This document shows positions 1-29,362 of a stretch of DNA of 29,945 nt, piece after piece. This stretch comes from a virus (lineage: Duplodnaviria > Heunggongvirae > Uroviricota > Caudoviricetes). The translations under genes were made by a program, and so were the position numbers. The notes below the pieces were generated by a model, which was given only the letters and a program-made list of their open reading frames with translations, searched no databases and was not told where the DNA came from. The DNA is taken from the IMG/VR virus record IMGVR_UViG_2671181114_000018. One strand, given 5' to 3'. Positions within the stretch are counted from its first letter, which is position 1, and each line of letters begins with the position of its first letter.

Positions 1-1365
1 TTATGGACGGAGGCAATACTCGGCAATTCGAAGCGCTGAAATGTGCTTTTCATGGATCATGTCGTTCCCGCATCCGCATTCATTCTCACATGGTTCTCGC
101 ACCCATACACCATCGCTATTTTTTCGGTAGAACCATCCAGGACGAAAACCTGCGTTCTGCATATACATCCCTGGGTGAACGACAACTAATTCACATACTT
201 CAATCAGGTCAGTCTCATGGCATATGATTCCAATTCCCTTCTGATACACGGCCTGAAAGTCTTTATTGACATGTTTTATTAGTTCATCTATCTCAAAAGC
301 GACGTAATTTTTTCCTTTAAGAAGCCGCTCTATCTTTGGCAAGCGCAATGGAGAATTGTCATTATCTGTACCAAAGAGAATTATGCTGGGTGAACTTATT
401 GTAACGCCGCCTGTTAATTCGCCTCTCATCGTTTCAATAGAGTCAAATAGCTCAGCTATTTTCCCACCACGATAGAAAGCAATACTAGGAGAAACGTTTT
501 TCACATAACTATCATGATATTCAGGTAATTCAAGTGACCGCTTGAATACAGGAATATCTATATTTGGATCCCTTAATTGTTCAACTTCCCGCCAAGGTAA
601 GTCTAATAACTCCTTGAGGATAGGATCCTCCGTAACTGACGGGAATAAGGAATTTGTATCAGTGATTGCATTCAATACGGCATATTGTTTTAAAAGTGAC
701 CGACTAGCTTTTATCTGTGCAATAAAGCAATTTTCTGGAACTGGCTCTCCATATAGCGGCCCTAGTAACCAAGCATCTTGGGCCTGCATTCTGGGTCGGA
801 AACCCTTAATTTCAATATCAGAAAGATCAACCAAACCAAGACGAGATGCTAGTGATTTATCTAGAATGTAGAGATATCCATCTCCATCTTCATAATAATA
901 CCTTACCGCTTTTTTTATCAGCCATATGGGGTTTTCATTACAGTCTTCGCACATGTCTATCTTTGGCGGTGGAGATGGTTTTATTGACAGTGAACATTTA
1001 TGACTCGCAAACCAAGCGGCAACTGCAGGGTTAGTGGTACAGTCAACATAGAATGATCTCCATCCATAGTGTTGTAACAGTGCCTGTACATATTCCAGAT
1101 CGTTTGCATGGCTACCAATTACTCCCTCAAGCACACTTGCAGCATAGCTAATCCACTTTATCATCGTTGACTTGTTACATTCATCGCGATCAAAAGAAGC
1201 AAGTACGGATGGTACCTCCTGCTTACCATAGAGAGAATTTTGACCTCGAAATAATACATTGTCACCAAACTGTGCAATTACAGCTTCCAGCTCACTAATA
1301 GTTCTGACCTCAAATTGTTCCAATTCTTCCCTCTCCCCTGAATTCGCAATCATGGCATCTTGCAC
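1..1365 (-). CDS. Hypothetical accessory protein with N-terminal FRG-like motif and Cys-rich C-terminus (candidate defence/cargo gene)
   Basis: Complete 454-aa ORF (stop = revcomp of nt 1-3). Contains 'VLFRGQNSLYGK' near the N-terminus, which I recall as the FRG domain signature, and Cys clusters (CEDCNENP; PCENECGCGNDMIHEKH). Visibly AT-rich compared with the phage structural genes. Function not known from sequence. Confidence 0.45.
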   Translation of the reverse strand: MQDAMIANSGEREELEQFEVRTISELEAVIAQFGDNVLFRGQNSLYGKQEVPSVLASFDRDECNKSTMIKWISYAASVLEGVIGSHANDLEYVQALLQHYGWRSFYVDCTTNPAVAAWFASHKCSLSIKPSPPPKIDMCEDCNENPIWLIKKAVRYYYEDGDGYLYILDKSLASRLGLVDLSDIEIKGFRPRMQAQDAWLLGPLYGEPVPENCFIAQIKASRSLLKQYAVLNAITDTNSLFPSVTEDPILKELLDLPWREVEQLRDPNIDIPVFKRSLELPEYHDSYVKNVSPSIAFYRGGKIAELFDSIETMRGELTGGVTISSPSIILFGTDNDNSPLRLPKIERLLKGKNYVAFEIDELIKHVNKDFQAVYQKGIGIICHETDLIEVCELVVVHPGMYMQNAGFRPGWFYRKNSDGVWVREPCENECGCGNDMIHEKHISALRIAEYCLRP

Positions 1366-2381: not shown

Positions 2382-4085
2382 TCAGGCGATTATCTTCTGG
2401 TACTTACTCCGGGTCTGACCTGCCTTCTCCGCCGTCTGTGTGAATGCGCCGGCATTGGTTGGCGTACCAACGCTGGGGTGTGAATGGCTCGCACACTGCT
2501 GCGCCAGCTCGGCCAGTAAATCAATGGTGTCCAGCATCATGGTCAGCGTGTTAACGCTCTCACTGCCAATATGGACGGTTGGCCCCATAATCTGCTGACC
2601 GCCCGATGCCACCGATTTACGTAATGCAGCAATCTTTTCTGTCAGGGTTCCCCCCACATCAACATCCACGGCACCGGCCACTTTCGTGGATTGTTTGCCG
2701 GTTATATCGGCTTCGTCATTCCCCTCAATGCTGGCCAATCTGTTGCCCTTCACGGCCTGGCTATAATCACCGGCACTGACCTGCTGAATGGCTCCGGCCA
2801 TCAGGGTGGCGGTACCCAGCACCGTGGTTTTATCAGTGGCTTTAACTGTCGTTTCACGGCTGACCAGATCACGCTGTTCTGTATCGGCTTTAACCGTCCG
2901 CGCCATCGATGTTTCGCTGATGGTCTGATCGGTCTGCCGTACCCAATCGCCAGCCTGGGTAACGCGCTGCGACACTTCAGCCCGCTGCTGTTGCAGCTGC
3001 TCACCGGGCTTAACATCCGGCAGGCTGGTACCATCCGGCAGTGTCTGCCTGATAAACGGTTTATCAGGTCGCCCCCCGGTAAACGCAACTTCAACCAGCG
3101 TCCCTTCTGGCGGGAACTGGAACATGCCAGAGTCATTCCCGGCCATAGGTACCGGCAGCGGCACCGCTGAATAAACCGGCGTCTGGTTGTCCGGGTTGCC
3201 GTCTGCATCAAGCAGCTGCACATCAACGGCATAGCGCGGCCGGAACGGATCGGCAAAATTACCACTTTTCACAGTCTCACTGGGTGCCACCACTCTGGCC
3301 AGTTTTGGCAGGTGCAGCCCGGAAGCCAGTTCCGGGTAATGGCTTTCAATCTGGCGCTGTGCCGGTGTTTTCTGTAATGGCTGACCTGTTGCGCGGTTTC
3401 TGGGTGTCCAGGTGATGGCCATGGTGTCATTGGTCAGATGAACTTTGGTCACGCGTTCTCCGTTCAGCTCCACACCCGGCCGCAGACTCTGGATCACTGG
3501 CAGCGTCATGGAATGACCGCCAGCCGCCCCCTGGCTGAACTCTGCCGGGATATCAACCGGACGATCGGCGAACATCGCTTTTTCCGCGCCGCCCACATAC
3601 AGGGAACCATCCGGCAACTGGTACCAGATGTAATCCGGGATACTGAATGCTTTGCCCAGATTATTCAGCAACTGATAGCCAGTGCCATTGTGGGTGAAAT
3701 GGGGGATCGGCTTATCGCTGTATGGGGCATCCGGCACACTGACAGCAATTCCGCTGTTTTCCTCCAGCCAGATGGCTACCTTGCGCAAAGTGGGATGCTG
3801 AAATGAACATGGCCACATCCTTTCAAATACGCCGACCAGCTCGCGCACAAACAGACGCTGAAAACCGTTTTCGGCGGGTTGTGCGCGTTCCACATAGCCG
3901 GTAAACCAGCGCAAAAGCAGATCGGAATAACCCACATCCAGCCGCACCAGTTTCCCGGTGTAATCCGTGGCTGTCTGTGCGGTGATAAACCCCCGGCCAC
4001 AGCTGCTCAGCTCCAGCACCAGGCTGGCATCAGCCAGATGAACTTCATCCGTTGAAAGGTACAGGCGTTTAACTGGTTTCATCAT
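2382..4085 (-). CDS. Baseplate central hub-spike protein (gpV/gp5-type OB-fold domain with N-terminal extension; VgrG-like arrangement)
   Basis: 567 aa, last gene of the late operon. 'EGTLVEVAFTGGRPDKPFI' resembles the gpV/gp5/VgrG OB-fold signature (xVLVxFxxGDxDRPxV); C-terminal 'CASHSHP' resembles the HxH metal-binding spike apex. From memory; no HMM run. Confidence 0.5.
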   Translation of the reverse strand: MMKPVKRLYLSTDEVHLADASLVLELSSCGRGFITAQTATDYTGKLVRLDVGYSDLLLRWFTGYVERAQPAENGFQRLFVRELVGVFERMWPCSFQHPTLRKVAIWLEENSGIAVSVPDAPYSDKPIPHFTHNGTGYQLLNNLGKAFSIPDYIWYQLPDGSLYVGGAEKAMFADRPVDIPAEFSQGAAGGHSMTLPVIQSLRPGVELNGERVTKVHLTNDTMAITWTPRNRATGQPLQKTPAQRQIESHYPELASGLHLPKLARVVAPSETVKSGNFADPFRPRYAVDVQLLDADGNPDNQTPVYSAVPLPVPMAGNDSGMFQFPPEGTLVEVAFTGGRPDKPFIRQTLPDGTSLPDVKPGEQLQQQRAEVSQRVTQAGDWVRQTDQTISETSMARTVKADTEQRDLVSRETTVKATDKTTVLGTATLMAGAIQQVSAGDYSQAVKGNRLASIEGNDEADITGKQSTKVAGAVDVDVGGTLTEKIAALRKSVASGGQQIMGPTVHIGSESVNTLTMMLDTIDLLAELAQQCASHSHPSVGTPTNAGAFTQTAEKAGQTRSKYQKIIA

Positions 4086-9551: not shown

Positions 9552-11587
9552 GCATTAAGCTCCTGCCATTCCATTAGCTGGGAGGGTGAAAGTGCTTCTT
9601 TGGTATGAAAATGCACTTCACCAATTTTACGGCTGTTATCCGTCACTGATTTAGAGTTACTGCTTATTGTTTTACTGATACCACCGCGATCCACATCCTT
9701 TAACTTTCCACCTGTTGAAAGGGTATTGGCAGTCAATGTTTCACTGGTATTTGCAGTATGGTTGTTCTGTATTAATGAAGGTACCACCCCACCTGTAATT
9801 TTATTTATTTCCGGCGAAACGGTTGTGGACAGGTCAATATTGACGCCCGGAATTTTATTCAGTTTTTCAACAATCCAGTTCCACGACTTCAGAAATCCGC
9901 TTTTAATGGTCTGCCAGACGTTATCAAACAGGGAAACAATACCGCTGGCCATCCCGCTTAATGCCTGTGAGGGTGAGAACCCGGCCAGCAGCGCAATAAA
10001 ACTGTTCCAGCCGTCTTTAATCCACTGCCATGCAGCGGAGAACACGCCGGCAAGCCATTCCACCACGCCCGCCACCGCCGTAAACGCTGCAGTATTCATC
10101 ACCGCCGCTTTCACATCATCCCAGTGTTTAATCAGCAGGTAACAGCCCGCAGCCAGCAGGGCTATCGCCCCGATAACCAGCAGCACCGGCCAGCTCATCA
10201 GATTAATACCAATGCCGGCCATAATCGCCGCCATGCGTACGGCCAGCAGCGTGCCACGAAGGAATTTAAGCGTGATGTTCCATGCCGCGACGGCTTTTGA
10301 GGCAATCCAGACAGTGGCGGTGTATATCTTCGTGACTGAAGTCAGCGTCTTCCAGAGAGCAATCGCGCCCAGCTTAATAAGTTTTGAGACGCCCAGAACG
10401 ATGTTCGCTACCGCGCCGGCAGCAGCAAACCCCAACAACGCCATAGCCGCATAGCCGATAACACGCGCAATGTTGGGAAACAACTGCATCCAGCGGGCAA
10501 AGGTCTGCCCCATATCGGCCAGGCGATTCAGCACCGGATACAGGACGGGGATCAACGTCAGCCCAATGACGGTCTGAATAGACTTAAGGATCTGAACAAA
10601 GCGATCCCACGGTTTCACCAGTTTCCCGGCCATCTCCTGTGTACGCTTCAATCCGTCAGAACCGCCCAGCTCAGTGATATTACGTTGCAGTAAGGCCACA
10701 TTGCCGTAAAGATGTTTCACCACCGCTGAACTGTCACCAAATGCCGCATCCAGCTCCGCCTGGGCTTTCAGGTTCCCTTCCAGGCTTTTGCCATACTTAC
10801 CCTGTAACTTGATCAGCATTTCAGGCATGGACAGCATTTTGCCGGTGGCATCCGTAAAGGACAGCCCCAGCTTTTTACCGCCCTCAATGGCTCCGGTCAT
10901 GAAGCCTTCATAAGCGCTGCTGGCTTCCGTTCCCAGCGTTCGGTTAAGCTGCCCCAGTACGGCCAGTTGTTCATCCAGCCCCACGCCGTAGTTGGTACCC
11001 ACGCCGCGCGCACCTTCCATCAGGTCTTTGATGACGCCCATTTCAGTACCGAAGACCTTGCGCATGTACACCATTTTTCCGGCCAGTTGTTCAGCAAACT
11101 GGACTTTACCCAGCCGTGCCGCCTCGGCGGAAAAGTTGCCGTACATCTGCCCCATAAACTCTGCGGTATCGGCAGATGTTGATTTCAGTGCAAACGCCAG
11201 CGTGTTGGCGACTTTCGTCACCTTCGGCAGTTCATTCCCGGTCAGGCCGGCAATGGCGGTGTTAATACTTTCCGTGGACTGGACAAACTCCACCGCGCTG
11301 GCGCCGTAGGTCATACTGAACCGCAACGCATCACGCTGGACGGCCTTTAAAGCCTGATCATCAATGCCTTTTGCGGCTGCGTCATTCAGCGCGTCATACA
11401 TCTCAATAGCCGGCGACAACGCCCCTTTGATGGCCATCCCTGTGCCGGCTAAAGCCAGCGCACCGCCCCCAATCTGCGTAAAGGCCACTTTCGATTTTTC
11501 AGCAAAGCCTGTAACACTGCTCTGCACCTGCTTTAACGGGCGCGTCAGTTTATCAATCAGGCTTAAGGTAAAATCTAACTGTTTCAT
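9548..11587 (-). CDS. Tail tape measure protein
   Basis: 679 aa, Ala/Gly-rich helical N-half, several hydrophobic segments in the middle (e.g. 'LLVIGAIALLAAGCYLLI'), directly downstream of the frameshifted chaperone. Confidence 0.8.
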   Translation of the reverse strand: MKQLDFTLSLIDKLTRPLKQVQSSVTGFAEKSKVAFTQIGGGALALAGTGMAIKGALSPAIEMYDALNDAAAKGIDDQALKAVQRDALRFSMTYGASAVEFVQSTESINTAIAGLTGNELPKVTKVANTLAFALKSTSADTAEFMGQMYGNFSAEAARLGKVQFAEQLAGKMVYMRKVFGTEMGVIKDLMEGARGVGTNYGVGLDEQLAVLGQLNRTLGTEASSAYEGFMTGAIEGGKKLGLSFTDATGKMLSMPEMLIKLQGKYGKSLEGNLKAQAELDAAFGDSSAVVKHLYGNVALLQRNITELGGSDGLKRTQEMAGKLVKPWDRFVQILKSIQTVIGLTLIPVLYPVLNRLADMGQTFARWMQLFPNIARVIGYAAMALLGFAAAGAVANIVLGVSKLIKLGAIALWKTLTSVTKIYTATVWIASKAVAAWNITLKFLRGTLLAVRMAAIMAGIGINLMSWPVLLVIGAIALLAAGCYLLIKHWDDVKAAVMNTAAFTAVAGVVEWLAGVFSAAWQWIKDGWNSFIALLAGFSPSQALSGMASGIVSLFDNVWQTIKSGFLKSWNWIVEKLNKIPGVNIDLSTTVSPEINKITGGVVPSLIQNNHTANTSETLTANTLSTGGKLKDVDRGGISKTISSNSKSVTDNSRKIGEVHFHTKEALSPSQLMEWQELNA

Positions 11588-19272: not shown

Positions 19273-19415
19273 ATTGCCTCCCTTCCTGCTGCGGTTTTCA
19301 GTATCGCCAATTAAATTAACCGCCGCATTCACTTCATTTCGGATATAAACAATTAGCCGAACACATCAGAAATAAAGCAGGATTTAATAAAGAAGCGCCC
19401 GTGCATAATGTGTGC

Positions 19416-21200
19416 ATGGCTAAATACTCAGAAGAATTAAAAGGCGTTGCGCGGGCGCTTTATTTAAAACGTTATACCCCGCAGGAAATTGCCAGTGAAC
19501 TTAATCTGCCTAACAGACGCATTGTCTATTACTGGGCAGCGAAATATTGCTGGGCGGAATTACTCAGCCACGAATCAACCGAGGACGCATTAAACCGCCG
19601 CATTCAGTCTCTGACATTACGTGAAGGGAAATCCGAGCTGGAGCTGCGGGAGCTGGACAGCCTCGTTTCTCACCTGGTGAAACTGCGAGCACAGCATAAT
19701 AAGCATCAGGAAAAACTGGCAGAAATTAAGCACAGCGAAAGTGATGCGCCGACGTCCCGTCAGTCCGGTGGAGACGAAAAGCCCCGTAAACGTGGCAAGT
19801 ACAAAAAAAATGATATCAGCGGGCTGACGCAGGAAGATTTCGACCGGTTCGCGCTCGAGCACCTTTTCGGCTACCAGAAACACCTTCGCGCCAATCTCAA
19901 TCAGCAAATCAGGAACATCCTGAAAAGTCGCCAGATTGGCGCAACCTGGTATTTCTCAATAGAAGCCTTTGAAAATGCGGTTATGACAGGCGATCCGCAA
20001 ATCTTCCTGTCCGCGTCAAAGGCTCAGGCTGAAGTGTTCCGCAGCTATATCGTCAACATTGCGGAGCAGTATTTCGGCGTGGAGCTGACAGGCAACCCCA
20101 TCCGCCTGTCCAACGGTGCGGAGTTGCGCTTCCTGTCCACCAATAAGAACACCGCCCAGTCATACAGTGGTCATCTGTATTGTGATGAATATTTCTGGGT
20201 ACCCAACTTTGCAAAATTAAACGAAGTGGCCAGCGCAATGGCCACACACGACAAATGGCGCACCACCTACTTTTCCACTCCCAGCAGCAAAACACACCAG
20301 GCTTACCCGTTCTGGACAGGTGAAGAATGGAAGCGCGGCAACAAAAAACGCGCACGCGTGGCGTTTCCAACAGAGAAGGAGCTGCGTGACGGTGGACGGT
20401 TATGTCCTGATGGCCAGTGGCGCTACATCATCACACTGGAAGACGCGATTGCGGGCGGGTTCAATCTGGCCAGCATCGAAAAACTACGTAATCGCTACAA
20501 CCGCGACACTTTCAACATGCTGTACATGTGCGTTTTCGTGGACAGCAAAGACAGCGTTTTTTCGTTCTCCCATGTGGAACGCTGCTGTATTGATCCGGAT
20601 ATCTGGGAGGATCATGACGAAGACCTGCCCCGGCCATTCGGCAATCGTGAAGTATGGGCAGGCTATGACCCGGCTCGCAGCGGCGACACCTCAACCTTTG
20701 TCATTGTCGCCCCGCCGATAGTGGCCGTCGAAAAATTTCGCGTACTACGCGTATTCCACTGGCAGGGAATGAACTGGAAATGGCAGGCGGCACAAATCAA
20801 AAAACTGTTTGGCCAGTACAACATGACTTACATCGGGATTGATATCACCGGGCTGGGGAGTGGTGTCTTTGAAGATGTGCAGCACTTTGCCATGCGTCAG
20901 GCGGTGGCTATCCGCTATGGCGTGGAAACCAAAAACCGCCTGGTGATGAAGATGATCGACGTTATCGAAGACAACCGCGTGGAGTGGGACAAGGAGAAAA
21001 CTGAAATCGCCGCCAGCTTTATGACCATCCGCAGAACGTCCACGGCCAGCGGTAACGCCATGACGTTTGTTGCCGACCGTACAGCTGAAACCGGCCACGC
21101 TGACAGTTTCTGGGCTATCGCCCATGCCATAGACAACGAACCATTACACTTTGAAAACCAGCGCAAATCACGCTGGGGTAACTTAGGGAAAGCAGCATGA
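19416..21200 (+). CDS. Terminase ATPase (large) subunit (P2 P-like)
   Basis: Track ORF 19401-21200 (599 aa); probable start 'MAKYSEELKG' at 19416. Size and position (P then Q, divergent from O-N-M-L) as P2 gpP. Confidence 0.85.
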   Translation: MAKYSEELKGVARALYLKRYTPQEIASELNLPNRRIVYYWAAKYCWAELLSHESTEDALNRRIQSLTLREGKSELELRELDSLVSHLVKLRAQHNKHQEKLAEIKHSESDAPTSRQSGGDEKPRKRGKYKKNDISGLTQEDFDRFALEHLFGYQKHLRANLNQQIRNILKSRQIGATWYFSIEAFENAVMTGDPQIFLSASKAQAEVFRSYIVNIAEQYFGVELTGNPIRLSNGAELRFLSTNKNTAQSYSGHLYCDEYFWVPNFAKLNEVASAMATHDKWRTTYFSTPSSKTHQAYPFWTGEEWKRGNKKRARVAFPTEKELRDGGRLCPDGQWRYIITLEDAIAGGFNLASIEKLRNRYNRDTFNMLYMCVFVDSKDSVFSFSHVERCCIDPDIWEDHDEDLPRPFGNREVWAGYDPARSGDTSTFVIVAPPIVAVEKFRVLRVFHWQGMNWKWQAAQIKKLFGQYNMTYIGIDITGLGSGVFEDVQHFAMRQAVAIRYGVETKNRLVMKMIDVIEDNRVEWDKEKTEIAASFMTIRRTSTASGNAMTFVADRTAETGHADSFWAIAHAIDNEPLHFENQRKSRWGNLGKAA

Positions 21201-22216
21201 AAAAACGGAAATACAGGGAACGCCGCACCGTTACCAAACAACGCCATATGAGCCTTATCACGCTGGGCAAGCCAGAACCCATTCTGACGACCGGCACGAA
21301 CTATACAGACGTCTGGTATGACAATGAGGCGGAACACTGGACGCTCCCGATTGACAGGCTGGCACTGGCACAACTGGTGAACCTGAACGCGCAGCACGGC
21401 GGCGTGCTGTATGCCCGTCGCAATATGGTGACAGCAAATTATGATGGCGGCGGCCTGACACATGAGCAACTGGGCGCGGCCGTATTTGACTGGCTGACGT
21501 TCGGTGATGTGGCCATTCTCAAAGTACGTAACGGCTGGGGGGATGTGGTTGCACTGTACCCGCTGCCGGCGCTCTATACCCGCCAGCGTAAGACCGGGGA
21601 ATTTGTTGTACTTCAGCAGGGTGAACCGGTGATTTATCCGCCTGAAGATATTATTTTTCTCAGGCAGTACGACCCGCAACAGGCTATTTATGGTCTTCCG
21701 GATTACATCAGCGGCATCCACTCCGCCCTGCTCAACGGTGAAGCCACGATTTTTCGCCGGCGTTACTATCACAACGGTGCTCACACGGGCGGTGTGCTCT
21801 ATTCCAATGACCCGAATATGACCGATGAAGTGGAAGAAGAAATTATTCAGAAGCTGGAGCAGTCAAAGGGGATCGGGAATTTCAGCACCATGTTTGTGAA
21901 TATCCCCAAAGGTGATCCGGATGCCATCAAATTTATCCCGATTGGTGATATCAGCGCCAAAGATGAGTTTCAGAACGTGAAAAGCATCAGCGCTCAGGAT
22001 GTACTGACCGCGCACCGTTTCCCGGCCGGTCTGGCCGGAATTATCCCCACGAACGGGGCAGTAATGGGGGATATTGAGAAAGCGGCCAAAACATACCGCA
22101 AAGCGGAGATTTTACCTATTCAGCGCATGTTCACCGCCGCAGTGGAGCAAGAAAGTGATGTACCACCCCACCTGTACCTTAATTTCCTGAAAGACAGTGA
22201 GCTGGAAGGTGATTAA
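21197..22216 (+). CDS. Portal (capsid vertex) protein (P2 Q-like)
   Basis: 339 aa immediately downstream of and overlapping the large terminase gene; size as P2 gpQ. Confidence 0.85.
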   Translation: MKKRKYRERRTVTKQRHMSLITLGKPEPILTTGTNYTDVWYDNEAEHWTLPIDRLALAQLVNLNAQHGGVLYARRNMVTANYDGGGLTHEQLGAAVFDWLTFGDVAILKVRNGWGDVVALYPLPALYTRQRKTGEFVVLQQGEPVIYPPEDIIFLRQYDPQQAIYGLPDYISGIHSALLNGEATIFRRRYYHNGAHTGGVLYSNDPNMTDEVEEEIIQKLEQSKGIGNFSTMFVNIPKGDPDAIKFIPIGDISAKDEFQNVKSISAQDVLTAHRFPAGLAGIIPTNGAVMGDIEKAAKTYRKAEILPIQRMFTAAVEQESDVPPHLYLNFLKDSELEGD

Positions 22217-22269
22217 TGTCCGCAAAAAGGCTAAAATATCATCGTTTTCCAACTTCCGGAGCGATGGAT

Positions 22270-22545
22270 ATGCGGGTAATGAAGGTTTACTGTCCGGTAT
22301 GTGAGGCAAGGGCTGTTATCAAAAAAACAGCCAGAAAACACAAGGAGCTGTCTGATTTATATTGCGCCTGTACTGATGTTGAATGCGGTCACACTTTTGT
22401 GATGAATATGACGTTCTCACATACCATCAGCCCCAGCGCCAAATCCAGCGATGCGTTGATCGCCACTATCTGTAACAGCCTTGATATGCAGCAAAAACAG
22501 CTGATGCTCAAATTTTTAAGTCAGGATGCTACCGCAGCAGCATAG
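22270..22545 (+). CDS. ogr: Ogr/Delta-family zinc-finger late transcription activator
   Basis: Track ORF starts at 22216 overlapping the Q stop; likely start at Met 'MRVMKVYCPVC' (22270, GGAG about 9 nt upstream) or 'MKVYCPVC' (22279). Cys pattern CPVC...YCACTDVECGHTF parallels P2 Ogr CPLC...HQCQNVNCSATF as I recall it. Confidence 0.7.
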   Translation: MRVMKVYCPVCEARAVIKKTARKHKELSDLYCACTDVECGHTFVMNMTFSHTISPSAKSSDALIATICNSLDMQQKQLMLKFLSQDATAAA

Positions 22546-22574
22546 AAAAAGGCACCGTTACAGGTGCCTTTTTT
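22546..22574. terminator. Bidirectional rho-independent terminator between ogr-like gene and the convergent cargo gene
   Basis: aaaaa-ggcacc-gttaca-ggtgcc-tttttt: 6-bp GC stem flanked by an A-run and a T-run, immediately after the ogr stop and 17 nt from the stop of the minus-strand cargo gene. Confidence 0.6.
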
Positions 22575-22590
22575 CATAGACACTGAGCAA

Positions 22591-23598
22591 TTATTTGCTT
22601 TTATTTCCATCATTATTAGGATGATTTACAGGAGTAAGGCCTGAGGCTACATCATTAGCAGTTTGAAGACTGGTAGGAATCAGACCGGGCCAATTTGCCC
22701 CATTTAGTCCCCAATTGAGTTTAGCTAAATTCTCACCAGGCCAGGTTGATTTCGCAGAATTTAAATCAAGTCCCTGAAGCCCCTGAAGCCCCTGAACCCC
22801 CTGAAACCCCAGAGAACCTAAAGTCGGCCTGGCAAAAGGCAGTGTATTCTTAGATATTTCCTGATTAATATCGTCTAATTTATTTTGATTCGCTATAATT
22901 TTGGCATTCAAATCCATCAATTCTTTTTCTTTTAATTCCAATTCCGTCCTCACCTTCGAAATTGAGTCCATAGCATTATAATAAGAATTGGTAACTGACT
23001 GAACCTCTTTTCCCTTTTCCTTTATTAACTCATTAATATCCCTGAGCTTTACCTGAGCGTTATTATATTTATCTTCAAGCGCGTTTGTATCATATTCGAT
23101 AGCTTTATTTGCCTTTTCAGCATTTAACCTCGCTTTTGCGTCTGCATATTCATACTCGACATTTTTATTTATTTCGTCTATTTTTAAATCAAGAGCACTC
23201 TGTTTTCTCTTACTATCATTTGTACTCTTTTTCGTAAGCACTCCATTTTGTATTACATCAACAACATATGAGATAAAAGGAGTGCCAACTACAAATATAA
23301 TTGAGGCAACAAATGGATACCAAAACGTATGAGTATGAGGGATGCTAATTCCAAAAAAGACACTATTTGATGGTAACGCCTTTATTTTTTCAATACGTTG
23401 TTCTATGTCCAGACTGAACGAGAATAAGAGTAATAGAGTGCGGTCCCAGTTACAGAGAATCCAAGAGGATATGAAGCATAGAAAAAATGGATTTGATAAC
23501 CGTTGATTAACAGCTTTCACTACCGGTTCAGTTGTAACTGATTTTACCGCATCCAAAGCTTTATCTATTGTTTCGCTCATTTTAGGAGTATCAACCAT
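22591..23598 (-). CDS. Accessory membrane-anchored coiled-coil protein with C-terminal collagen-like G-x-Q repeats (candidate superinfection-exclusion/defence cargo)
   Basis: 335-aa ORF (start may be the internal Met 'MSETIDK'). Hydrophobic N-terminal segments ('FFLCFISSWILC', 'VASIIFVVGTPFISYVV'), long K/E-rich heptad region, C-terminal 'GFQGVQGLQGLQGL'. Visibly AT-rich; sits between the replication gene and ogr/portal, the position of tin/old in P2. Confidence 0.5.
   Translation of the reverse strand: MVDTPKMSETIDKALDAVKSVTTEPVVKAVNQRLSNPFFLCFISSWILCNWDRTLLLLFSFSLDIEQRIEKIKALPSNSVFFGISIPHTHTFWYPFVASIIFVVGTPFISYVVDVIQNGVLTKKSTNDSKRKQSALDLKIDEINKNVEYEYADAKARLNAEKANKAIEYDTNALEDKYNNAQVKLRDINELIKEKGKEVQSVTNSYYNAMDSISKVRTELELKEKELMDLNAKIIANQNKLDDINQEISKNTLPFARPTLGSLGFQGVQGLQGLQGLDLNSAKSTWPGENLAKLNWGLNGANWPGLIPTSLQTANDVASGLTPVNHPNNDGNKSK
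22772..22807. repeat. In-frame tandem repeat, 4 units of 9 bp (ccctgaagc x2, ccctgaacc, ccctgaaac) inside the cargo gene
   Basis: Read directly from the plus strand; on the minus strand the units encode the G-L/F/V-Q triplets of the collagen-like tail. Confidence 0.9.
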
Positions 23599-23714
23599 TA
23601 TTTTTAAACAAAGTTATTGATAAATGAATAATATCATACTACTAGAAAACTGTAACATCACGACTTCCTTCATGATGTCACAGTTTTTAGCTATAACTGA
23701 GAGATATAAAGTAG

Positions 23715-26369
23715 TTAATCTCGTTTAAAAATCCAGCATCGGAATGTATCCGGCATCCGTTGCATATCCCCTTTACCACGGTTATGGCGCTCACTAACTG
23801 CGCTGCGCGTGGTGCTTTGTCTGATGAACCGACGTTCATTACCGTTTTTAAGCAGCTTTTTGATTTCCGTTAAAGTGAACGGAATCCGCTGCCGGTGTGC
23901 TGCTGCGACTTCTTCCATATGATTGAAATTAATTGCAATTTCATTTTCATCTGATGAGTGATTGACGCCATAGGGTGCCAGTTCATCCAGGTAATCAAAC
24001 AGTTCCCAAAACTCCTGCACCATCGGGTGATCCTTTTTAAGCGCCTGACAACGTTCAATAGCCAGCGCGGTGATGGCTTCGCGAGTTTTTTCTATGCGTT
24101 CAACCGGTACCGGCACAACAAGCGCAAGCGCCTCCAGCAAACCCACAAGCTGCGCGTGATTCTTTGCAATACGGATATGGCGAATACTACTGTTAGATTC
24201 CAGCGCATTCCTGGCGCGTTCGTATCCCTTACCGAACGTCTGCATGATTTCTTTCTCACGCATGGTGGCCAGTAGTGTGAATCCCGATACCTGGCTAACA
24301 GGGAGTTGTTCCAGCCGCTCCGCAGCGTGGCGCGTCTGAATAGACTGCCCGCGCTTGTCGGTATAGATATGGATAATACGCTCCAGAAACGCCTTGCTGC
24401 CGTCTGTATCAGCGTTCTGCGCAATCACAATACTGCCCCTGAATGGCGGTTCGTATGTTTCGTTATTGTTGGACTTTATCCCCACAGCACGGGAAGCGCG
24501 GCCGTTATACAATGATTTCAGTTCATCCCAGTCAAAAGCACGTTGCTTGGCGTTATCCGTTGTGCGGTCGCCTTCGATTAACACAACCGGCAGGTTGCCG
24601 ACCTGGGCAAAGTTGCGCCCACGCGCTGCGGCCGTGGACTTAGAAGGATCAAAACCTTCATATTCTTCACGGCCGGCGAGCTTCCACAGAAATTCAATCA
24701 GTGTAGATTTACCTGTCCCCGGTTCACCCACGATTTCCAGAAACGGGAATGACTTATCGCGCTCCCGGATTTGTTCGGCAAAAAGCGACCCCAGCCAGAA
24801 TGCTAGCGCCACGTACCCCTTTTCACCAAATGCCGTCCAGATATCGTCAATCCAGCCCGTGGTAAATTCATTCAGCTTTGGATTCAGATCCAGCGATGGT
24901 GTCAGGCTCAGGCTTTTTACACTGGCGTGATTGATTTCAAAATAGTCTTCATCGTTCATCTCATACAGCCGGCCATCGCACACGGCCACACGGTTAAACA
25001 GCCACGCTGAATAATCTTTGTTGTAGCCGATAAAGTTCTGTGTCTTAACCTCTTTTATTTCAGGAAGCCGCATCTGGATGAACTTATCCAGTTGCTTGGT
25101 GCTGCCGGTGTATACCGCCCCTTTGGCGATATGCAGCAAACGTTTCTTAAACTCGGCGGAGCTGGTGAGCTGGTTCGCCGTGAAGGTATCCTTCACCGCT
25201 GGCCGGTTCGGCATGTTGACCTTAACGTAATACCAGGACTCGTCAGTAGGTTCAGAACGCTGGAAATAGAGCGGAGTCAGCCAGCAGTTAGCTATTTCTG
25301 TCACGCCGCCAGATTCTTTCACCGCACGTTCTTTGGCTTCCCAGTCCTGGATAACTTCGGTACCGGTATTACTTATGCGCTCATAGGCTCGCATGTACCT
25401 GTCCAGATCCAGTTCAAACCAGAACATGCGGGAATTATGTTCAAAATAGAACGAATGCCACTCATTATGCTGATGCATGAGCAGCGCTTTTTCAGTCGGA
25501 CTTTTCGCCAGCAGAATATCGCCATAGTAGCGATAATTTTTGATGTCCGATTTACTGAACCGGCCACGCAACAACAAGTCATTCCAGTCCAGACAGGAGG
25601 ATGATTTCACCGGCTGCGCCGCACGAACTTTCCAGCCGGCATCCTCACTACGTGCAGCAAATGCCAGCGTGTGCTTTGTGCCGGCCTTATCGCCGTCAAA
25701 TGCCCATACAAGGCGTGGGCGCGGTTTTTCGCCCAGTTCTTTGGCCAGCGTATCCAGTGCGGCCAGAGGGTAGTTGTTACTGCTCAGTGTGGCAACTGCG
25801 GGTAAACCCGCCTGGCAAAGACTCAGCGCATTAAATATCCCCTCAGTGATCCAGATTTCATTCACTTCCAGCAGGTTGACAGAAGGTGGTACCCACCAAT
25901 GGCCAACATAACTCCCTTTAATATTGGCTTTTTGCTTACCAAAGCGTTGGGGCTGGTCAATAATGCGCTCCCACGTCGCACCACATGCCAGCTTAAATTT
26001 GACTGTTGCCGATCCCATGCCATCTTTAACAAACGCGCCCTGGGTGAAAATGCCTTTCAGTGGTTCGGTATCCAGCCCTCTGGCCTCACGCAGATACGCC
26101 TCAGCAGCTGCGTGTGGGGTTTCAGGAGTGTCCTGATACCGTTTAGACCAGTCCTCAAAAATATCCGGGTACAGCTCTTTAACAACGACCTGATGGCCGC
26201 AGTTATTTTCGCGACCACACTTCAGAATCCAGGGCTTATCTATGCTGGTGAATAATTCGCGCTTACGACACTTAGGGCATACACCCTGCTGCAAATACTT
26301 ATCCCGCTCTTTAAACTCAAAATCCTGAACAAGACGGCGCACAACGTCCTGTTGTATCGTTGCGTTCAT
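23715..26369 (-). CDS. Replicative primase-helicase, P4 alpha-type (zinc-binding primase + D5-like SF3 helicase)
   Basis: Track ORF 23715-26405 (896 aa); probable start 'MNATIQQ' (26369). N-terminal zinc-ribbon Cys pairs (CPKC...CGRENNCGH), Walker A 'GEPGTGKST' in the helicase part; size and domain order resemble P4 alpha. Confidence 0.8.
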   Translation of the reverse strand: MNATIQQDVVRRLVQDFEFKERDKYLQQGVCPKCRKRELFTSIDKPWILKCGRENNCGHQVVVKELYPDIFEDWSKRYQDTPETPHAAAEAYLREARGLDTEPLKGIFTQGAFVKDGMGSATVKFKLACGATWERIIDQPQRFGKQKANIKGSYVGHWWVPPSVNLLEVNEIWITEGIFNALSLCQAGLPAVATLSSNNYPLAALDTLAKELGEKPRPRLVWAFDGDKAGTKHTLAFAARSEDAGWKVRAAQPVKSSSCLDWNDLLLRGRFSKSDIKNYRYYGDILLAKSPTEKALLMHQHNEWHSFYFEHNSRMFWFELDLDRYMRAYERISNTGTEVIQDWEAKERAVKESGGVTEIANCWLTPLYFQRSEPTDESWYYVKVNMPNRPAVKDTFTANQLTSSAEFKKRLLHIAKGAVYTGSTKQLDKFIQMRLPEIKEVKTQNFIGYNKDYSAWLFNRVAVCDGRLYEMNDEDYFEINHASVKSLSLTPSLDLNPKLNEFTTGWIDDIWTAFGEKGYVALAFWLGSLFAEQIRERDKSFPFLEIVGEPGTGKSTLIEFLWKLAGREEYEGFDPSKSTAAARGRNFAQVGNLPVVLIEGDRTTDNAKQRAFDWDELKSLYNGRASRAVGIKSNNNETYEPPFRGSIVIAQNADTDGSKAFLERIIHIYTDKRGQSIQTRHAAERLEQLPVSQVSGFTLLATMREKEIMQTFGKGYERARNALESNSSIRHIRIAKNHAQLVGLLEALALVVPVPVERIEKTREAITALAIERCQALKKDHPMVQEFWELFDYLDELAPYGVNHSSDENEIAINFNHMEEVAAAHRQRIPFTLTEIKKLLKNGNERRFIRQSTTRSAVSERHNRGKGDMQRMPDTFRCWIFKRD

Positions 26370-26408
26370 ATATAATCCATGTGTGAAATGATGAATAAAA
26401 GGCAAAAA

Positions 26409-26627
26409 CTATATTCTGTACTGCTTGTTATATCTTTCATGCGTCATTAACTCCCAGCTTCTGCCCTTATCCTTACTAAGCAAACGCCAGCGATAGGAGA
26501 CATGAACAGAGAAATAATGATTTGGTTTTATAACCTGATATATCTTTTTGCCGTTGTAATATTCTGTCAGCGCTGAAAATGCCTTGTTAATGACACTTTC
26601 ACTTGCATGAGAGGTCACTTTCAGCAT
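26409..26627 (-). CDS. Hypothetical early protein
   Basis: 72-aa ORF immediately upstream of the primase-helicase gene in the same operon; AT-rich; no motif recognised. Confidence 0.35.
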   Translation of the reverse strand: MLKVTSHASESVINKAFSALTEYYNGKKIYQVIKPNHYFSVHVSYRWRLLSKDKGRSWELMTHERYNKQYRI

Positions 26628-28233: not shown

Positions 28234-28348
28234 CCATTTACCGCGAATACATGCACCACAAGTGCATGCTACTGGCAGCTAAATTTTGCACCAGACATTA
28301 CAAAGAGTTAGGAACGAGAAGAGAACGAACCCATCGGAGGGCTTTCTT

Positions 28349-29362
28349 ATGACAGTTAAGAAACTCGATGATGGTCGGTATGAAGTGGATATCAGACCTG
28401 CCGGGCGCAACGGAAAGCGCATCCGCAGGAAGTTCGACAAAAAAAGCGAGGCTATCGCTTTCGAAAAACACACGCAGTACAACCACCACAACAAAGAATG
28501 GCTTTCGAAGCCGACAGACAAGCGGCGTCTGTCAGAGCTAACGGCTATATGGTGGGAGTTGAAAGGAAAGCACGAGGAACACGGAAAATCTAATCTTGGG
28601 AAAATTGAAATATTTACCCGGATAACTGATGACCCCTGTGCGTTCCAGATAACGAAAGCACTTATCAGCCAGTACAGCGCTACCCGCAGAAGCCAGGGTA
28701 TAAAGCCATCAAGCATTAACCGGGATTTAACCTGCATAAGTGGCATGTTCACCGCATTAATTGAGGCTGAATTGTTCTTCGGTGATCACCCGATACGCGG
28801 TACGAAAAGACTGAAAGAACAGAAGCCGGAAACCGGCTATCTGACACAGGATGAAATTAGCTTGTTGCTTTCGCAACTGGACGGAGACAACAAGAAGATT
28901 GCGATTCTTTGTCTTAGTACCGGCGCAAGATGGGGTGAAGCCGCGCGGCTGAAAGCGGAGAACGTGATCCATAACCGCTGTACGTTTGTTAAAACCAAAA
29001 CGAACAAACCACGCACTGTGCCAATTTCTGACGAGGTGGCAAATATGATCGCCAACAACAAGCGAGGCTTTCTTTTTCCGGATGCAAACTATCCAGCATT
29101 CAGACGGTTGATGAAGGAACTGAAACCTGATCTTCCGGCCGGACAAGCAACCCACGCATTGCGTCACAGCTTCGCAACCCATTTCATGATTAACGGTGGG
29201 AGCATCATCACGCTGCAACGTATCCTTGGCCATTCGCGAATTGAGCAAACTATGGTCTACGCACACTTTGCCCCGGAATACTTGCAGGACGCGATCGCCC
29301 TCAATCCGTTACGTGGAGGAATTGAGGTTCAGAGTGTCCACACAGTGTCCACAGACGAGTAA
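28349..29362 (+). CDS. int: Tyrosine integrase (P2 Int-type)
   Basis: Track ORF starts at 28286 with TTG; real start is Met 'MTVKKLDDGRYEVDIRPAGRNGKRIRRKF' at 28349 with GGAGGG upstream. Catalytic C-terminal 'HALRHSFATHFMINGGSIITLQRILGHSRIEQTMVYAHF' (R..H-x-x-R...Y). Downstream of C as in P2. Confidence 0.9.
   Translation: MTVKKLDDGRYEVDIRPAGRNGKRIRRKFDKKSEAIAFEKHTQYNHHNKEWLSKPTDKRRLSELTAIWWELKGKHEEHGKSNLGKIEIFTRITDDPCAFQITKALISQYSATRRSQGIKPSSINRDLTCISGMFTALIEAELFFGDHPIRGTKRLKEQKPETGYLTQDEISLLLSQLDGDNKKIAILCLSTGARWGEAARLKAENVIHNRCTFVKTKTNKPRTVPISDEVANMIANNKRGFLFPDANYPAFRRLMKELKPDLPAGQATHALRHSFATHFMINGGSIITLQRILGHSRIEQTMVYAHFAPEYLQDAIALNPLRGGIEVQSVHTVSTDE

What the first reader, a model, noticed from the sequence alone, without database searches (positions are those of the whole stretch)
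22591..23598. AT-rich membrane/coiled-coil/collagen-repeat cargo gene at the replication-packaging junction (P2 tin/old-equivalent hotspot)
Between the replicase gene and the ogr/portal genes, where P2 carries its exclusion genes tin and old, sits a single 335-aa ORF unrelated to either. It has predicted N-terminal transmembrane helices, a long K/E-rich coiled coil and a C-terminal G-x-Q collagen-like repeat, flanked by its own terminator (22546-22574) and an operator-like inverted repeat upstream. Its composition is visibly more AT-rich than the flanking genes (not computed). This architecture matches no defence family I can name, so it is a candidate single-gene superinfection-exclusion or abortive-infection system.
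Basis: partly seen in the sequence, partly recalled or inferred. Interest (0 to 1): 0.8.

Follow-up and report, generated by a model that had tools for sequence, protein, structure and literature searches.

The report
Uncharacterised membrane coiled-coil prophage cargo gene
A P2-like prophage carries, in the slot where its relatives carry the Old anti-phage nuclease or nothing, an AT-rich gene for a two-helix inner-membrane protein with a long coiled-coil stalk and a fast-evolving tail; the family has no known function and is a good but untested candidate for a new single-gene phage-exclusion protein.

Summary
The 335-aa ORF at 22591-23598 (-) is real, under purifying selection, and foreign in composition (GC 36.5%, GC3 30%, against 50% for the window).

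It lies between a Toprim primase and ogr/portal in an Evevirus-like Peduoviridae prophage. In phages with at least 85% identical primases this slot is empty or holds at least eight different cargoes, including a full-length Old nuclease. That makes it the tin/old-equivalent hotspot.

**Architecture:**
- a highly conserved N-terminal domain of two membrane helices, predicted N-in/C-in, with an invariant Asn50-Trp51;
- a coiled coil of fixed length, about 125 residues;
- a disordered, hypervariable tail.

**Database results:** the N-domain defines a family of about 950 clusters at 50% identity. It has no Pfam, NCBIfam, PADLOC, PDB or fold match. Only unknown-function PHROGs match.

**Where relatives sit:** in a canonical P2 gpA–gpQ hotspot beside an AIPR gene, as antisense morons in lambdoid prophages, and fused to the end of a Vibrio type I R-M operon.

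**Claims that do not hold:**
- The "collagen-like" repeat is a 9-bp repeat whose copy number varies between alleles.
- The terminator belongs to the phage backbone, not to this gene.
- The upstream palindrome reads better as an insulating hairpin than as an operator.

The exclusion or abortive-infection function is inferred from context only.

The parts
22591..23598 (-). CDS of the 335-aa cargo protein 'X'. The start is uncertain: Met1 at 23598 or the invariant Met7 at 23580. Neither has a Shine-Dalgarno sequence.
   Evidence: ORF listing. 46 homologue clusters, all in Enterobacterales. dN/dS is 0.05-0.17 in the N-domain and 0.14-0.34 in the coiled coil. phrog_4780, E 2e-71, function unknown.
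23224..23598 (-). Conserved N-terminal membrane domain (residues 1-125). It comprises an N-terminal helix (5-34), TM1 (37-62, kinked at the invariant N50-W51), a short loop of about 30 residues with a helix and a beta-hairpin (PSNSVF, HxH), and TM2 (92-116).
   Evidence: 73% mean pairwise identity among 26 orthologues. Invariant or near-invariant residues are R33, W46, N50, W51, P95 and P107 across 134 diverse members. AF2 with the deep alignment gives pLDDT 87. The profile finds 948 clusters at 50% identity.
23413..23490 (-). Hydrophobic helix 1 (residues 37-62), FFLCFISSWILCNWDRTLLLLFSFSL.
   Evidence: Kyte-Doolittle 1.2-1.26. It is a strong TM in distant members. AF2 gives helices 37-49 and 51-59.
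23251..23325 (-). Transmembrane helix 2 (residues 92-116). It continues without a break into the coiled coil.
   Evidence: Kyte-Doolittle up to 1.97. AF2 gives a single helix 89-144.
22846..23226 (-). Coiled-coil stalk (residues 125-251), rich in K, N and E. Predicted to be cytoplasmic.
   Evidence: AF2 gives a single helix with pLDDT 84-93. Heptad a/d occupancy is 0.77 against 0.57 in shuffles. Length is fixed at 121-126 residues in orthologues. K+R density after TM2 is 0.24, against 0.10 in the loop, over 199 members.
22594..22845 (-). Disordered, hypervariable C-terminal tail (residues 252-335). It contains two degenerate W-P-G...L motifs and a basic end.
   Evidence: pLDDT 30-40. 16% mean identity and lengths of 58-184 aa among orthologues. 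Other clades carry different repeat arrays here.
22768..22812 (-). 9-bp tandem repeat encoding the (Q-G-L/V) units.
   Evidence: the repeat finder family D1: four overlapping in-register 18-nt copies at 9-nt spacing, spanning 45 nt. Copy number varies (1, 2, 4 or 5) among near-identical alleles.
22546..22573 (.). Bidirectional intrinsic terminator of the phage backbone, between the convergent ogr and X genes. It marks the right edge of the variable slot.
   Evidence: Perfect 11-nt arms. Hairpins of -17.4 and -18.4 kcal/mol with flanking A and U runs. Present in most slot variants, including several of the empty ones.
23646..23687 (-). Strong hairpin or palindrome just after the primase stop codon. 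It belongs to the X cassette. The most likely reading is a terminator that insulates X from the early operon; an operator is not excluded.
   Evidence: 18-nt arms, 89% complementary. -27.1 kcal/mol, z = -8.8. Found only in X-bearing loci; the core GACATCATGA/TCGTGATGTC is kept in the diverged cassette L029. There is no second copy in the window.
23628..23656 (-). Promoter-like site, GTTACA-17-TATTAT with an upstream TG (extended -10). The -35 hexamer overlaps the right arm of the hairpin.
   Evidence: Consensus scan, 9 of 12 matches. Conserved in L014, L016 and L025. This is a consensus match only.
22216..22545 (+). ogr/Delta-type late activator gene. It forms the right flank of the slot.
   Evidence: Pfam Ogr_Delta, E 1e-15.
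23715..26405 (-). Toprim primase/helicase-type replicase. It forms the left flank of the slot. The recombination junction lies within its last few codons.
   Evidence: phrog_1139 DNA primase, E 0; Pfam Toprim_2 and Toprim_3. The 3' ends differ between cargo types.

Best explanation
X is an accessory (moron) gene of the prophage. It is transcribed on its own from an extended -10 promoter behind an insulating hairpin. It encodes an oligomeric inner-membrane protein that protects the lysogen against other phages.

**Proposed working.** The two N-terminal helices form a hairpin in the inner membrane, with both termini in the cytoplasm. The coiled coil, about 19 nm long, holds several chains together and projects the variable tail into the cytoplasm. 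The tail, or in some relatives a globular C-terminal domain, recognises a phage-derived cue. The stalk transmits this to the conserved membrane module (polar N50-W51 core, prolines in TM2). That module then opens or perturbs the membrane, so infection is aborted.

**Shown:** gene reality, composition, hotspot position, domain architecture, the conservation gradient, and the family's distribution and contexts.

**Inferred:** topology (from the positive-inside rule), oligomerisation, expression in the lysogen, anti-phage function, and the sensor-stalk-pore mechanism.

My estimate is about 0.6 that the gene is anti-phage at all, and about 0.35 for this particular mechanism.
For: **Hotspot.** The same slot is empty or holds Old, DUF2528 with a partner, ClpX-zinc-finger, DUF6232 or a 239-aa protein in phages with at least 85% identical primases. 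The slot is the published P2 defence hotspot (PMC9122126, PMC9519451). In a 2026 preprint, 6 of 8 unknown cargoes from the analogous P4 hotspot gave protection (10.64898/2026.02.27.708500).

**Foreign composition.** GC3 is 30%.

**Contexts of relatives.**
- P0050 lies between portal and gpA of a canonical P2, next to an AIPR gene.
- P0117 overlaps the hsdR stop codon (ATGA) of a Vibrio type I R-M operon.
- P0064, P0091 and the Klebsiella phage protein QBP28505 are antisense morons between the replication genes and the nin/Q genes of lambdoid prophages.
- P0173 lies next to an integrase.

**Retention.** An intact copy under purifying selection survives with ogr in a decayed Pectobacterium prophage remnant.

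**Conservation gradient.** The membrane module is conserved and the C-terminus is hypervariable: 73%, 52% and 16% identity for N-domain, coiled coil and tail, with a fixed stalk length. Tails are built of different repeat arrays. This fits a constant effector with a fast-evolving sensor.

**Membrane module.** Polar residues within it are invariant across 134 diverse members.

**No enzymatic or structural-protein match.** None was found anywhere.
Against: - No experimental or homology-based link to any proven defence protein. All the evidence is contextual.
- Some distant members are not in mobile or defence contexts. P0125 lies between Bacteroidota polysaccharide-utilisation genes.
- The gene is co-oriented with the early replication operon, so expression during lytic growth cannot be excluded.
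- Promoter, topology and oligomeric state are predictions.
- Tail variability could simply reflect a lack of constraint.
- The first hydrophobic segment is only moderately hydrophobic in this protein.
Confidence: 0.35

Rival explanations
1. Superinfection exclusion at the inner membrane. X sits in the membrane and blocks the passage of incoming phage DNA. It would do so by engaging the injection conduit, the tape-measure protein or a host entry factor through its conserved membrane domain and short periplasmic loop. The cell survives. The coiled coil would serve only to oligomerise the protein.
For: The inner-membrane location and the hotspot and moron contexts are the same as for the best explanation. 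The most conserved part is the membrane domain with its 30-residue loop (PSNSVF, HxH), as expected if it contacts a conserved host or phage envelope component. Known precedents are small inner-membrane prophage proteins: P22 SieA and HK97 gp15 (PMC10883804).
Against: Known Sie proteins are small (SieA is 162-164 aa with three TMs, PMC10883804) and lack a long cytoplasmic stalk. Here the stalk is under purifying selection and has a fixed length, which a pure membrane plug would not need. There is no homology to any Sie protein: PADLOC and Pfam give nothing, and the hhalign probability against lambda SieB is 1.3%.
Confidence: 0.22
2. X is not an anti-phage gene. It would be an accessory membrane protein serving the prophage or the host in another way, for example modulating the envelope or cell division in the lysogen, tethering a phage or host factor to the membrane during the phage's own lytic cycle, or acting as a counter-defence.
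For: The gene is co-oriented with the early replication operon. No defence-family match was found. At least one distant member has a non-mobile chromosomal context. The same slot also carries cargo with no defence signature, including a 239-aa protein with no hits.
Against: The gene is dispensable: closely related phages have an empty slot. It is separated from the early operon by a strong hairpin and has its own promoter-like site. It is retained in a prophage remnant that can no longer make phage. Relatives are operonic with a type I R-M system and adjacent to an AIPR gene.
Confidence: 0.28
3. X is a lysis-related or virion structural protein (holin, spanin or tail component) misplaced outside its module.
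For: A two-TM, N-in/C-in layout with a charged C-terminus resembles class II holins. Coiled-coil segments give weak hits to structural PHROGs in single distant members.
Against: The nearest phage, ESSI2_ev239, has a complete lysis cassette (holin, endolysin, Rz-like spanin) elsewhere in its genome and carries other cargo in this slot. There is no match to any holin, spanin or tail family. The gene is absent from closely related phage genomes, some of which have an empty slot. The gene is 335 aa, far longer than holins.
Confidence: 0.03

Closest known systems
P2 Old and Tin (the cargo of the gpA–gpQ hotspot of phage P2)
   Same: Same genomic role and position: non-essential, AT-rich cargo between the replicase and the portal side of a Peduoviridae genome. 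An Old orthologue occupies exactly this slot in a phage whose primase is 99% identical (L017).
   Different: No sequence relationship: BLASTP E 1.7 against Tin and 3.5 against Old. There is no ATPase or TOPRIM domain. X is a membrane protein, and it has the opposite orientation to Old in L017.
SNIPE / PD-lambda-1 (membrane-anchored DUF4041 + GIY-YIG nuclease; PMC13190303, PMC9519451)
   Same: A single-gene, elongated inner-membrane protein with an N-terminal TM anchor and a long helical cytoplasmic part. It was found in E. coli mobile elements, and one end of the protein is diversifying.
   Different: X has no DUF4041 and no nuclease domain. In SNIPE the C-terminal enzyme is the conserved part and the N-terminal membrane region is variable. 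In X the membrane domain is conserved and the C-terminus is variable.
Inner-membrane superinfection-exclusion proteins (P22 SieA, HK97 gp15, T4 Imm)
   Same: Prophage- or phage-encoded, predicted inner-membrane, single-protein systems with no enzymatic domain (PMC10883804).
   Different: These proteins are small (SieA is 162-164 aa with three TMs) and have no coiled-coil stalk. No sequence similarity is detectable with PADLOC or Pfam.
Membrane-associated abortive-infection proteins (lambda SieB and RexB, lactococcal AbiP, S. aureus PdpSau)
   Same: Prophage morons with N-terminal TM segments and a cytoplasmic part, acting alone or nearly so. PdpSau changes membrane potential on infection (PMC10127798). 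Lambda sieB is an antisense moron, as are the lambdoid relatives of X.
   Different: The hhalign probability against lambda SieB is 1.3%. AbiP and PdpSau carry an OB-fold nucleic-acid-binding domain (PMC10127798), which X lacks.
ZorA of Zorya (membrane motor subunit with a long cytoplasmic coiled-coil tail)

Membership tests
OLD-family nuclease (P2 Old) | N-terminal ABC-type ATPase domain plus a C-terminal TOPRIM nuclease domain | tested here: not met
   No AAA_15, AAA_21 or OLD-like_TOPRIM hit in X. No PADLOC Old hit. BLASTP against P2 Old gives E 3.5. As a positive control, the L017 cargo in the same slot hits Old at E 1e-215.
P2 Tin | Sequence similarity to the 253-aa cytoplasmic Tin protein | tested here: not met
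   BLASTP best E 1.7.
SNIPE / PD-lambda-1 | DUF4041 central domain | tested here: not met
   No Pfam family at E <= 0.1. None of the PADLOC hits at E <= 1 is a PD-lambda-1 model.
SNIPE / PD-lambda-1 | C-terminal GIY-YIG nuclease domain | tested here: not met
   The C-terminal 84 residues are disordered (pLDDT 30-40) and have no domain hit.
Lambda/P22 SieB (Pfam SieB) | Profile similarity to SieB | tested here: not met
   No Pfam SieB hit. hhalign of the family profile A4 against lambda SieB gives probability 1.3%.
Collagen-like (Gly-X-Y) repeat proteins | A long, conserved run of Gly-X-Y triplets able to form a triple helix | tested here: not met
   There are only about 4.5 triplets, encoded by a 9-bp tandem repeat. 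Near-identical alleles carry 1 to 5 units, and the repeat is absent from other orthologues. No Pfam Collagen hit.
Holin / spanin (lysis proteins) | Match to a holin or spanin family and a location in the lysis cassette | tested here: not met
   No Pfam, PHROG or NCBIfam lysis family matches. In the nearest phage the lysis cassette is annotated elsewhere in the genome.
PHROG 4780 / 13369 superfamily (function unknown) | N-terminal R-x2-NPF-x3-F-x2-SW-x3-NW two-helix membrane domain followed by a coiled coil | tested here: met
   phrog_4780 E 2e-71, phrog_13369 E 1e-19. 44 and 42 of 45 diverse relatives hit these PHROGs. The domain is at the N-terminus in all 207 proteins examined.
Prophage defence-hotspot cargo (P2 gpA–gpQ hotspot) | A variable gene content between conserved replicase and portal-side genes, including known defence genes | tested here: met
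   Slot survey in 29 IMG/VR loci plus four others: empty to 2.1 kb, at least eight cargo types, one of them Old.
Prophage defence-hotspot cargo (P2 gpA–gpQ hotspot) | Protection against phage infection when expressed | not testable with these tools
   This needs plaque and liquid-infection assays.

The most novel reading that the evidence does not exclude
X is the founding member of a widespread, unrecognised class of enzyme-free, single-protein anti-phage systems. The family comprises about 950 clusters at 50% identity, in Gammaproteobacteria and Bacteroidota, on P2-like and lambdoid prophages and attached to R-M operons. Each member would have a conserved two-helix 'NW' membrane module as the killing or blocking effector, a fixed-length cytoplasmic coiled coil as a ruler or transmitter, and a tail as the phage sensor. 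The tail would diversify by repeat slippage and domain swapping.
Probability: 0.3. Interest if true: 0.75.

Novelty: new variant of a known kind. Interest (0 to 1): 0.55.

Why it matters
If X protects lysogens, it adds a large protein family to the anti-phage repertoire. Pfam, NCBIfam and PADLOC miss this family, and only unknown-function PHROGs see it.

It would also be an unusually simple system. It has no enzyme and no partner gene, only a membrane hairpin, a rigid stalk and a variable tail. That makes it a tractable model for how membrane-bound immunity senses infection and acts on it.

The work also extends the P2 tin/old hotspot concept to the Evevirus-type Peduoviridae, which have a Toprim primase as replicase and ogr next to the portal gene. 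It gives a defined cassette boundary, from the last codons of the primase to a conserved backbone terminator, which can be used to mine further cargo.

The closest alleles are common in Salmonella enterica; one allele was seen on 494 contigs. The gene may therefore affect phage typing or phage therapy outcomes there.

Tried and rejected
**Sequence libraries**
- Pfam, NCBIfam and PADLOC scans of X gave only coiled-coil noise (SMC, Rad50, LmuB, JetC).
- Scans of 45 diverse relatives against Pfam and PADLOC also gave only coiled-coil noise.

**Structure**
- A PDB profile search found nothing below E 1.4.
- The full-length AF2 model was too poor in the N-domain (pLDDT 45-70). It was redone on the N-domain with a 134-sequence alignment (pLDDT 87).
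- Foldseek against PDB and BFVD found nothing at E <= 0.001.
- The afdb50 library was unavailable.

**Direct comparisons with known exclusion proteins**
- hhalign against lambda SieB was negative.
- BLASTP against P2 Tin and Old was negative.

**The upstream palindrome**
- I checked whether it is a repressor operator. There is no second copy in the window or in the immunity region.
- By eye it does not fit Ogr (TGT-N12-ACA), CRP or LexA spacing.

**Wider surveys**
With A2 it returned a single locus, in the same slot in Enterobacter asburiae, so no genome-wide statistic for defence-island association could be made.
- Tandem repeats in tails are significant in only 7 of 176 relatives. They are therefore a feature of the close clade and not of the whole family.
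- No att repeats or tRNA genes were found in the window to delimit the prophage.
- Literature searches found no paper that describes this family.
Full report
**1. The observation**

To its right are the convergent ogr gene (22216-22545; Pfam Ogr_Delta, E 1e-15), the portal gene (21197-22216) and the large terminase gene (19401-21200). To its left is a co-oriented 896-aa Toprim primase gene (23715-26405; phrog_1139).

The window as a whole is an Evevirus-like Peduoviridae prophage. The nearest deposited phage is Escherichia phage ESSI2_ev239, which has the same gene order. The integrase gene is at 28286-29362.

The gene is clearly foreign in composition. Its GC is 36.5% and its GC3 is 30%. The window is 50.1% GC, and GC3 in the neighbouring genes is 48-61%. 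The 23001-23500 bin is the most AT-rich in the window.

The gene is a real protein-coding gene.
- There are 46 homologue clusters, all in Enterobacterales.
- Pairwise dN/dS is 0.05-0.17 in the N-terminal domain and 0.14-0.34 in the coiled coil.
- The closest cluster (at least 90% identity) is mostly Salmonella enterica, with one allele seen on 494 contigs. Every member is named 'hypothetical' or 'coiled-coil domain-containing'.

**2. Anatomy of the protein**

*Residues 1-125, the N-terminal membrane domain.* This is the most conserved part, with 73% mean pairwise identity among 26 orthologues. The conserved motifs are RLSNPFFLxFxSSWxxCNWDR, PSNSVF, HxHxxWYPF and VD.

With a 134-sequence alignment, AF2 models it at pLDDT 87. 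The model has:
- an N-terminal helix (5-34);
- a hydrophobic helix (37-59) kinked at N50;
- a short loop with a helix (65-74) and a beta-hairpin (79-86);
- a second helix from residue 89 that runs straight into the coiled coil.

The second hydrophobic segment is a strong transmembrane helix. The first is moderate in this protein and strong in distant relatives.

Across 199 relatives, K+R density is 0.16 before TM1, 0.10 in the loop and 0.24 after TM2. By the positive-inside rule this favours both termini in the cytoplasm and the 30-residue loop outside. This topology is an inference.

*Residues 125-251, the coiled coil.* AF2 gives one continuous helix with pLDDT 84-93. It has significant heptad periodicity: a/d occupancy is 0.77, against 0.57 +/- 0.04 in shuffles, with a highest shuffle value of 0.68. 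Its length is almost fixed among orthologues, at 121-126 residues.

*Residues 252-335, the tail.* These are predicted to be disordered (pLDDT 30-40). They are hypervariable, with 16% identity and lengths of 58-184 aa.

The 'G-x-Q collagen-like repeat' is a 9-bp tandem repeat at 22768-22812. The window allele has four units. A near-identical IMG/VR allele differs only by lacking two of them. Salmonella and E. coli alleles at least 90% identical have 1, 2, 4 or 5 units, and the allele seen on the most contigs has one. It is a slippage polymorphism, not a collagen domain.

Other clades carry other arrays in the same place:
- WPxxNL...AK units, one to four copies;
- LxNLGx hexamers;
- NPFADGVS octamers in Pectobacterium;
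- repeated IPSAW-containing units (detected period 26 aa) in P0050.

Strict tandem repeats are nonetheless found in only 7 of 176 relatives, against 0 in shuffles.

**3. Regulatory signals**

*The inverted repeat at 22546-22573.* This is a good bidirectional terminator, but it is not the gene's own. The same element abuts ogr in most slot variants, including several of the empty ones. It belongs to the phage backbone and marks the right edge of the variable slot.

*The left edge.* This lies in the last codons of the primase gene, whose 3' end differs with the cargo.

*The upstream palindrome at 23646-23687.*
- It folds into a hairpin of -27.1 kcal/mol (z = -8.8), flanked by A and U runs.
- It lies directly after the primase stop codon and overlaps the -35 hexamer of an extended -10 promoter-like site, GTTACA-17-TATTAT with TG.
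- It occurs only in X-bearing cassettes.
- Its core, GACATCATGA/TCGTGATGTC, is kept in a cassette whose X is only 54% identical overall (71% in the N-domain) and which lacks the U tract.
- It has no second copy in the window and none in the immunity region.

I read it as a terminator that insulates X from the early operon. A protein-binding role is not excluded.

**4. The slot is a hotspot**

I took the primase as an anchor and looked at 29 IMG/VR loci with primases at least 85% identical, plus four other loci. The interval from the primase to ogr ranges from 30-55 bp (empty, six loci) to 2.1 kb.

Slot contents found:

| Cargo | Loci | Evidence |
|---|---|---|
| Empty (30-55 bp) | L031, L034-L036, L039, L041 | |
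| X family | window, L014, L016, L025, L029, L004, L005, L051 | |
| Full-length Old nuclease (primase 99% identical) | L017 | PADLOC Old E 1e-215; Pfam AAA_15 + OLD-like_TOPRIM |
| 239-aa protein with no hits | L019-L021, E. coli NT1F10 | |
| DUF2528 plus an 83-aa partner | L001, L042 | |
| ClpX-zinc-finger protein, 103-105 aa | L026, L015 (same-sized ORFs, not scanned, in L028, L030, L038) | |
| DUF6232 protein with two TMs | L037 | |
| Smaller ORFs | other loci | |

Most of this cargo is AT-rich: slot GC is 0.33-0.46 wherever a cargo ORF fills the slot.

The gpA-to-portal interval is the published P2 defence hotspot (PMC9122126, PMC9519451). In a 2026 preprint, six of eight unknown cargoes from the analogous P4 hotspot gave protection (10.64898/2026.02.27.708500). 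The Old orthologue in the same slot gives it direct support.

**5. The wider family**

A profile of the N-terminal domain was searched against 1.84 billion representative proteins. It finds 948 proteins at E <= 1e-3 and 71 at E <= 1e-10.
- The domain is at the N-terminus in all 207 proteins examined. Median protein length is 317 aa.
- None of 45 diverse members has a Pfam or PADLOC hit other than coiled-coil noise.
- Nearly all of them hit phrog_4780 and phrog_13369, and smaller numbers hit 22645, 35327 and 8191. All five are annotated 'unknown function'.
- N50 is invariant across 134 diverse members. R33, W46, W51, P95 and P107 are at least 90% conserved.
- Named members come from Enterobacterales, Vibrio, Shewanella, an Erwinia plasmid and Sphingobacterium.

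Contexts of relatives:
- The same primase-ogr slot in Citrobacter, Enterobacter and metagenomes.
- P0050 in the canonical P2 hotspot, between portal and gpA, beside an AIPR abortive-infection gene.
- Antisense morons between the replication genes and the nin/Q genes of lambdoid prophages: Klebsiella phage ST11-VIM1phi8.2, Enterobacter, and a metagenome.
- P0173 next to an integrase in Shewanella.
- P0117 overlapping the hsdR stop codon (ATGA) of a type I R-M operon in Vibrio. This member has a globular-looking C-terminal region of about 220 aa in place of a repeat tail.
- One Bacteroidota member between polysaccharide-utilisation genes, with no mobile element in view.
- In Pectobacterium aroidearum, an intact X together with ogr, as almost all that is left of a prophage next to pheA. 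Its N-domain dN/dS against the window allele is 0.105.

**6. Comparison with known systems**

X is unrelated to P2 Tin and Old and to lambda SieB (hhalign probability 1.3%). It has no DUF4041 or GIY-YIG domain, so it is not SNIPE/PD-lambda-1, the best-characterised membrane-anchored, elongated, single-gene defence protein (PMC13190303).

The conservation pattern is also the reverse of SNIPE's. There the enzyme end is conserved and the membrane end varies.

Small inner-membrane Sie proteins such as P22 SieA (PMC10883804), and membrane-anchored Abi proteins such as AbiP and PdpSau (PMC10127798), are functional precedents. They are not relatives.

**7. Most likely mechanism**

My commitment is as follows. 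X is a prophage-expressed, oligomeric inner-membrane protein that excludes other phages.

The favoured version has confidence 0.35. The variable cytoplasmic tail or domain senses an infection cue. The fixed-length coiled coil transmits it. The conserved membrane module, with its polar Asn-Trp core and helix-kinking prolines, then compromises the membrane. This would be an abortive-infection logic with a constant effector and a fast-evolving sensor.

The main rivals are:
- a SieA-like block of DNA entry through the conserved membrane and loop region (0.22);
- a function that is not anti-phage (0.28);
- a lysis or virion structural role, which is essentially excluded (0.03).

*Shown:* gene reality, composition, hotspot position, architecture, the conservation gradient, the size of the family and its contexts.

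*Inferred:* topology, oligomerisation, lysogenic expression, and any anti-phage activity.

**8. Verdict**

Three details were over-read: the collagen repeat, the 'own' terminator and the operator.

The gene belongs to a sizeable family with no assigned function. Its contexts make a defence role more likely than not. It is one of many unknown cargoes of a well-known hotspot, and nothing computed here fixes its mechanism.

Novelty: a new variant of a known kind, namely prophage-hotspot single-gene membrane exclusion candidates. Interest: 0.55.

Noticed in passing
window 1-1365 (-), with the AT-rich block 1-2000: An ORF that runs off the left edge of the window (at least 454 aa). It has an FRG domain (Pfam, E 1e-7) and weak hits to the PADLOC candidate PDC-S15 (E 4e-9). 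It sits in a second AT-rich block (GC 0.39-0.42) just outside the baseplate gene at 2382-4085. This may be a second cargo hotspot or a flanking island. An FRG domain is also fused to an HsdM in the Vibrio R-M locus that carries a relative of X.
   Followed up: partly
window 26409-26627 (-): A 72-aa protein with a ParE-like toxin domain (PF24732, E 1e-16), immediately upstream of the primase gene. It is conserved at the same place in related phages (L004, L005). I did not look for an antitoxin partner.
   Followed up: no
L017 5576-7682 (IMG/VR UViG_2711768169_000011): A phage with a 99% identical primase carries a full-length Old-family nuclease (586 aa, PADLOC Old E 1e-215) in the slot that holds X in the window. 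It is on the opposite strand.
   Followed up: yes
L019-L021 and L002 (E. coli NT1F10, WP_000909748.1): The same slot holds a 239-aa protein with a DxD-like YFDVDVV motif and no Pfam or PADLOC hit. It is present in 18 complete E. coli genomes, mostly from pigs. It may be a glycosyltransferase-like lysogenic-conversion gene or a defence gene.
   Followed up: partly
L006/L007 6001-7445 (Pectobacterium aroidearum): An intact homologue of X, together with ogr, survives as almost the only remains of a prophage between pheA and a ribosome-hibernation-factor gene. This looks like domestication of the cargo gene.
   Followed up: partly
L010-L012 7001-8398 (Vibrio): A 465-aa family member starts within the stop codon of hsdR (ATGA overlap) of a type I R-M operon. 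It has a non-repetitive C-terminal region of about 220 aa of unknown fold in place of a repeat tail.
   Followed up: partly
window 22131-22185 and 9781-9806: A 26-nt direct repeat (88% identity) is shared between the end of the portal gene and the tape-measure region. Several other two-copy repeats of 17-22 nt are scattered through the window. These are probably chance matches.
   Followed up: no
window vs L025, X gene: Synonymous divergence is uneven along the gene: dS 0.15 in the N-domain and 0.50 in the coiled coil. This suggests recombination within the gene that shuffles the stalk and tail against the membrane module.
   Followed up: no
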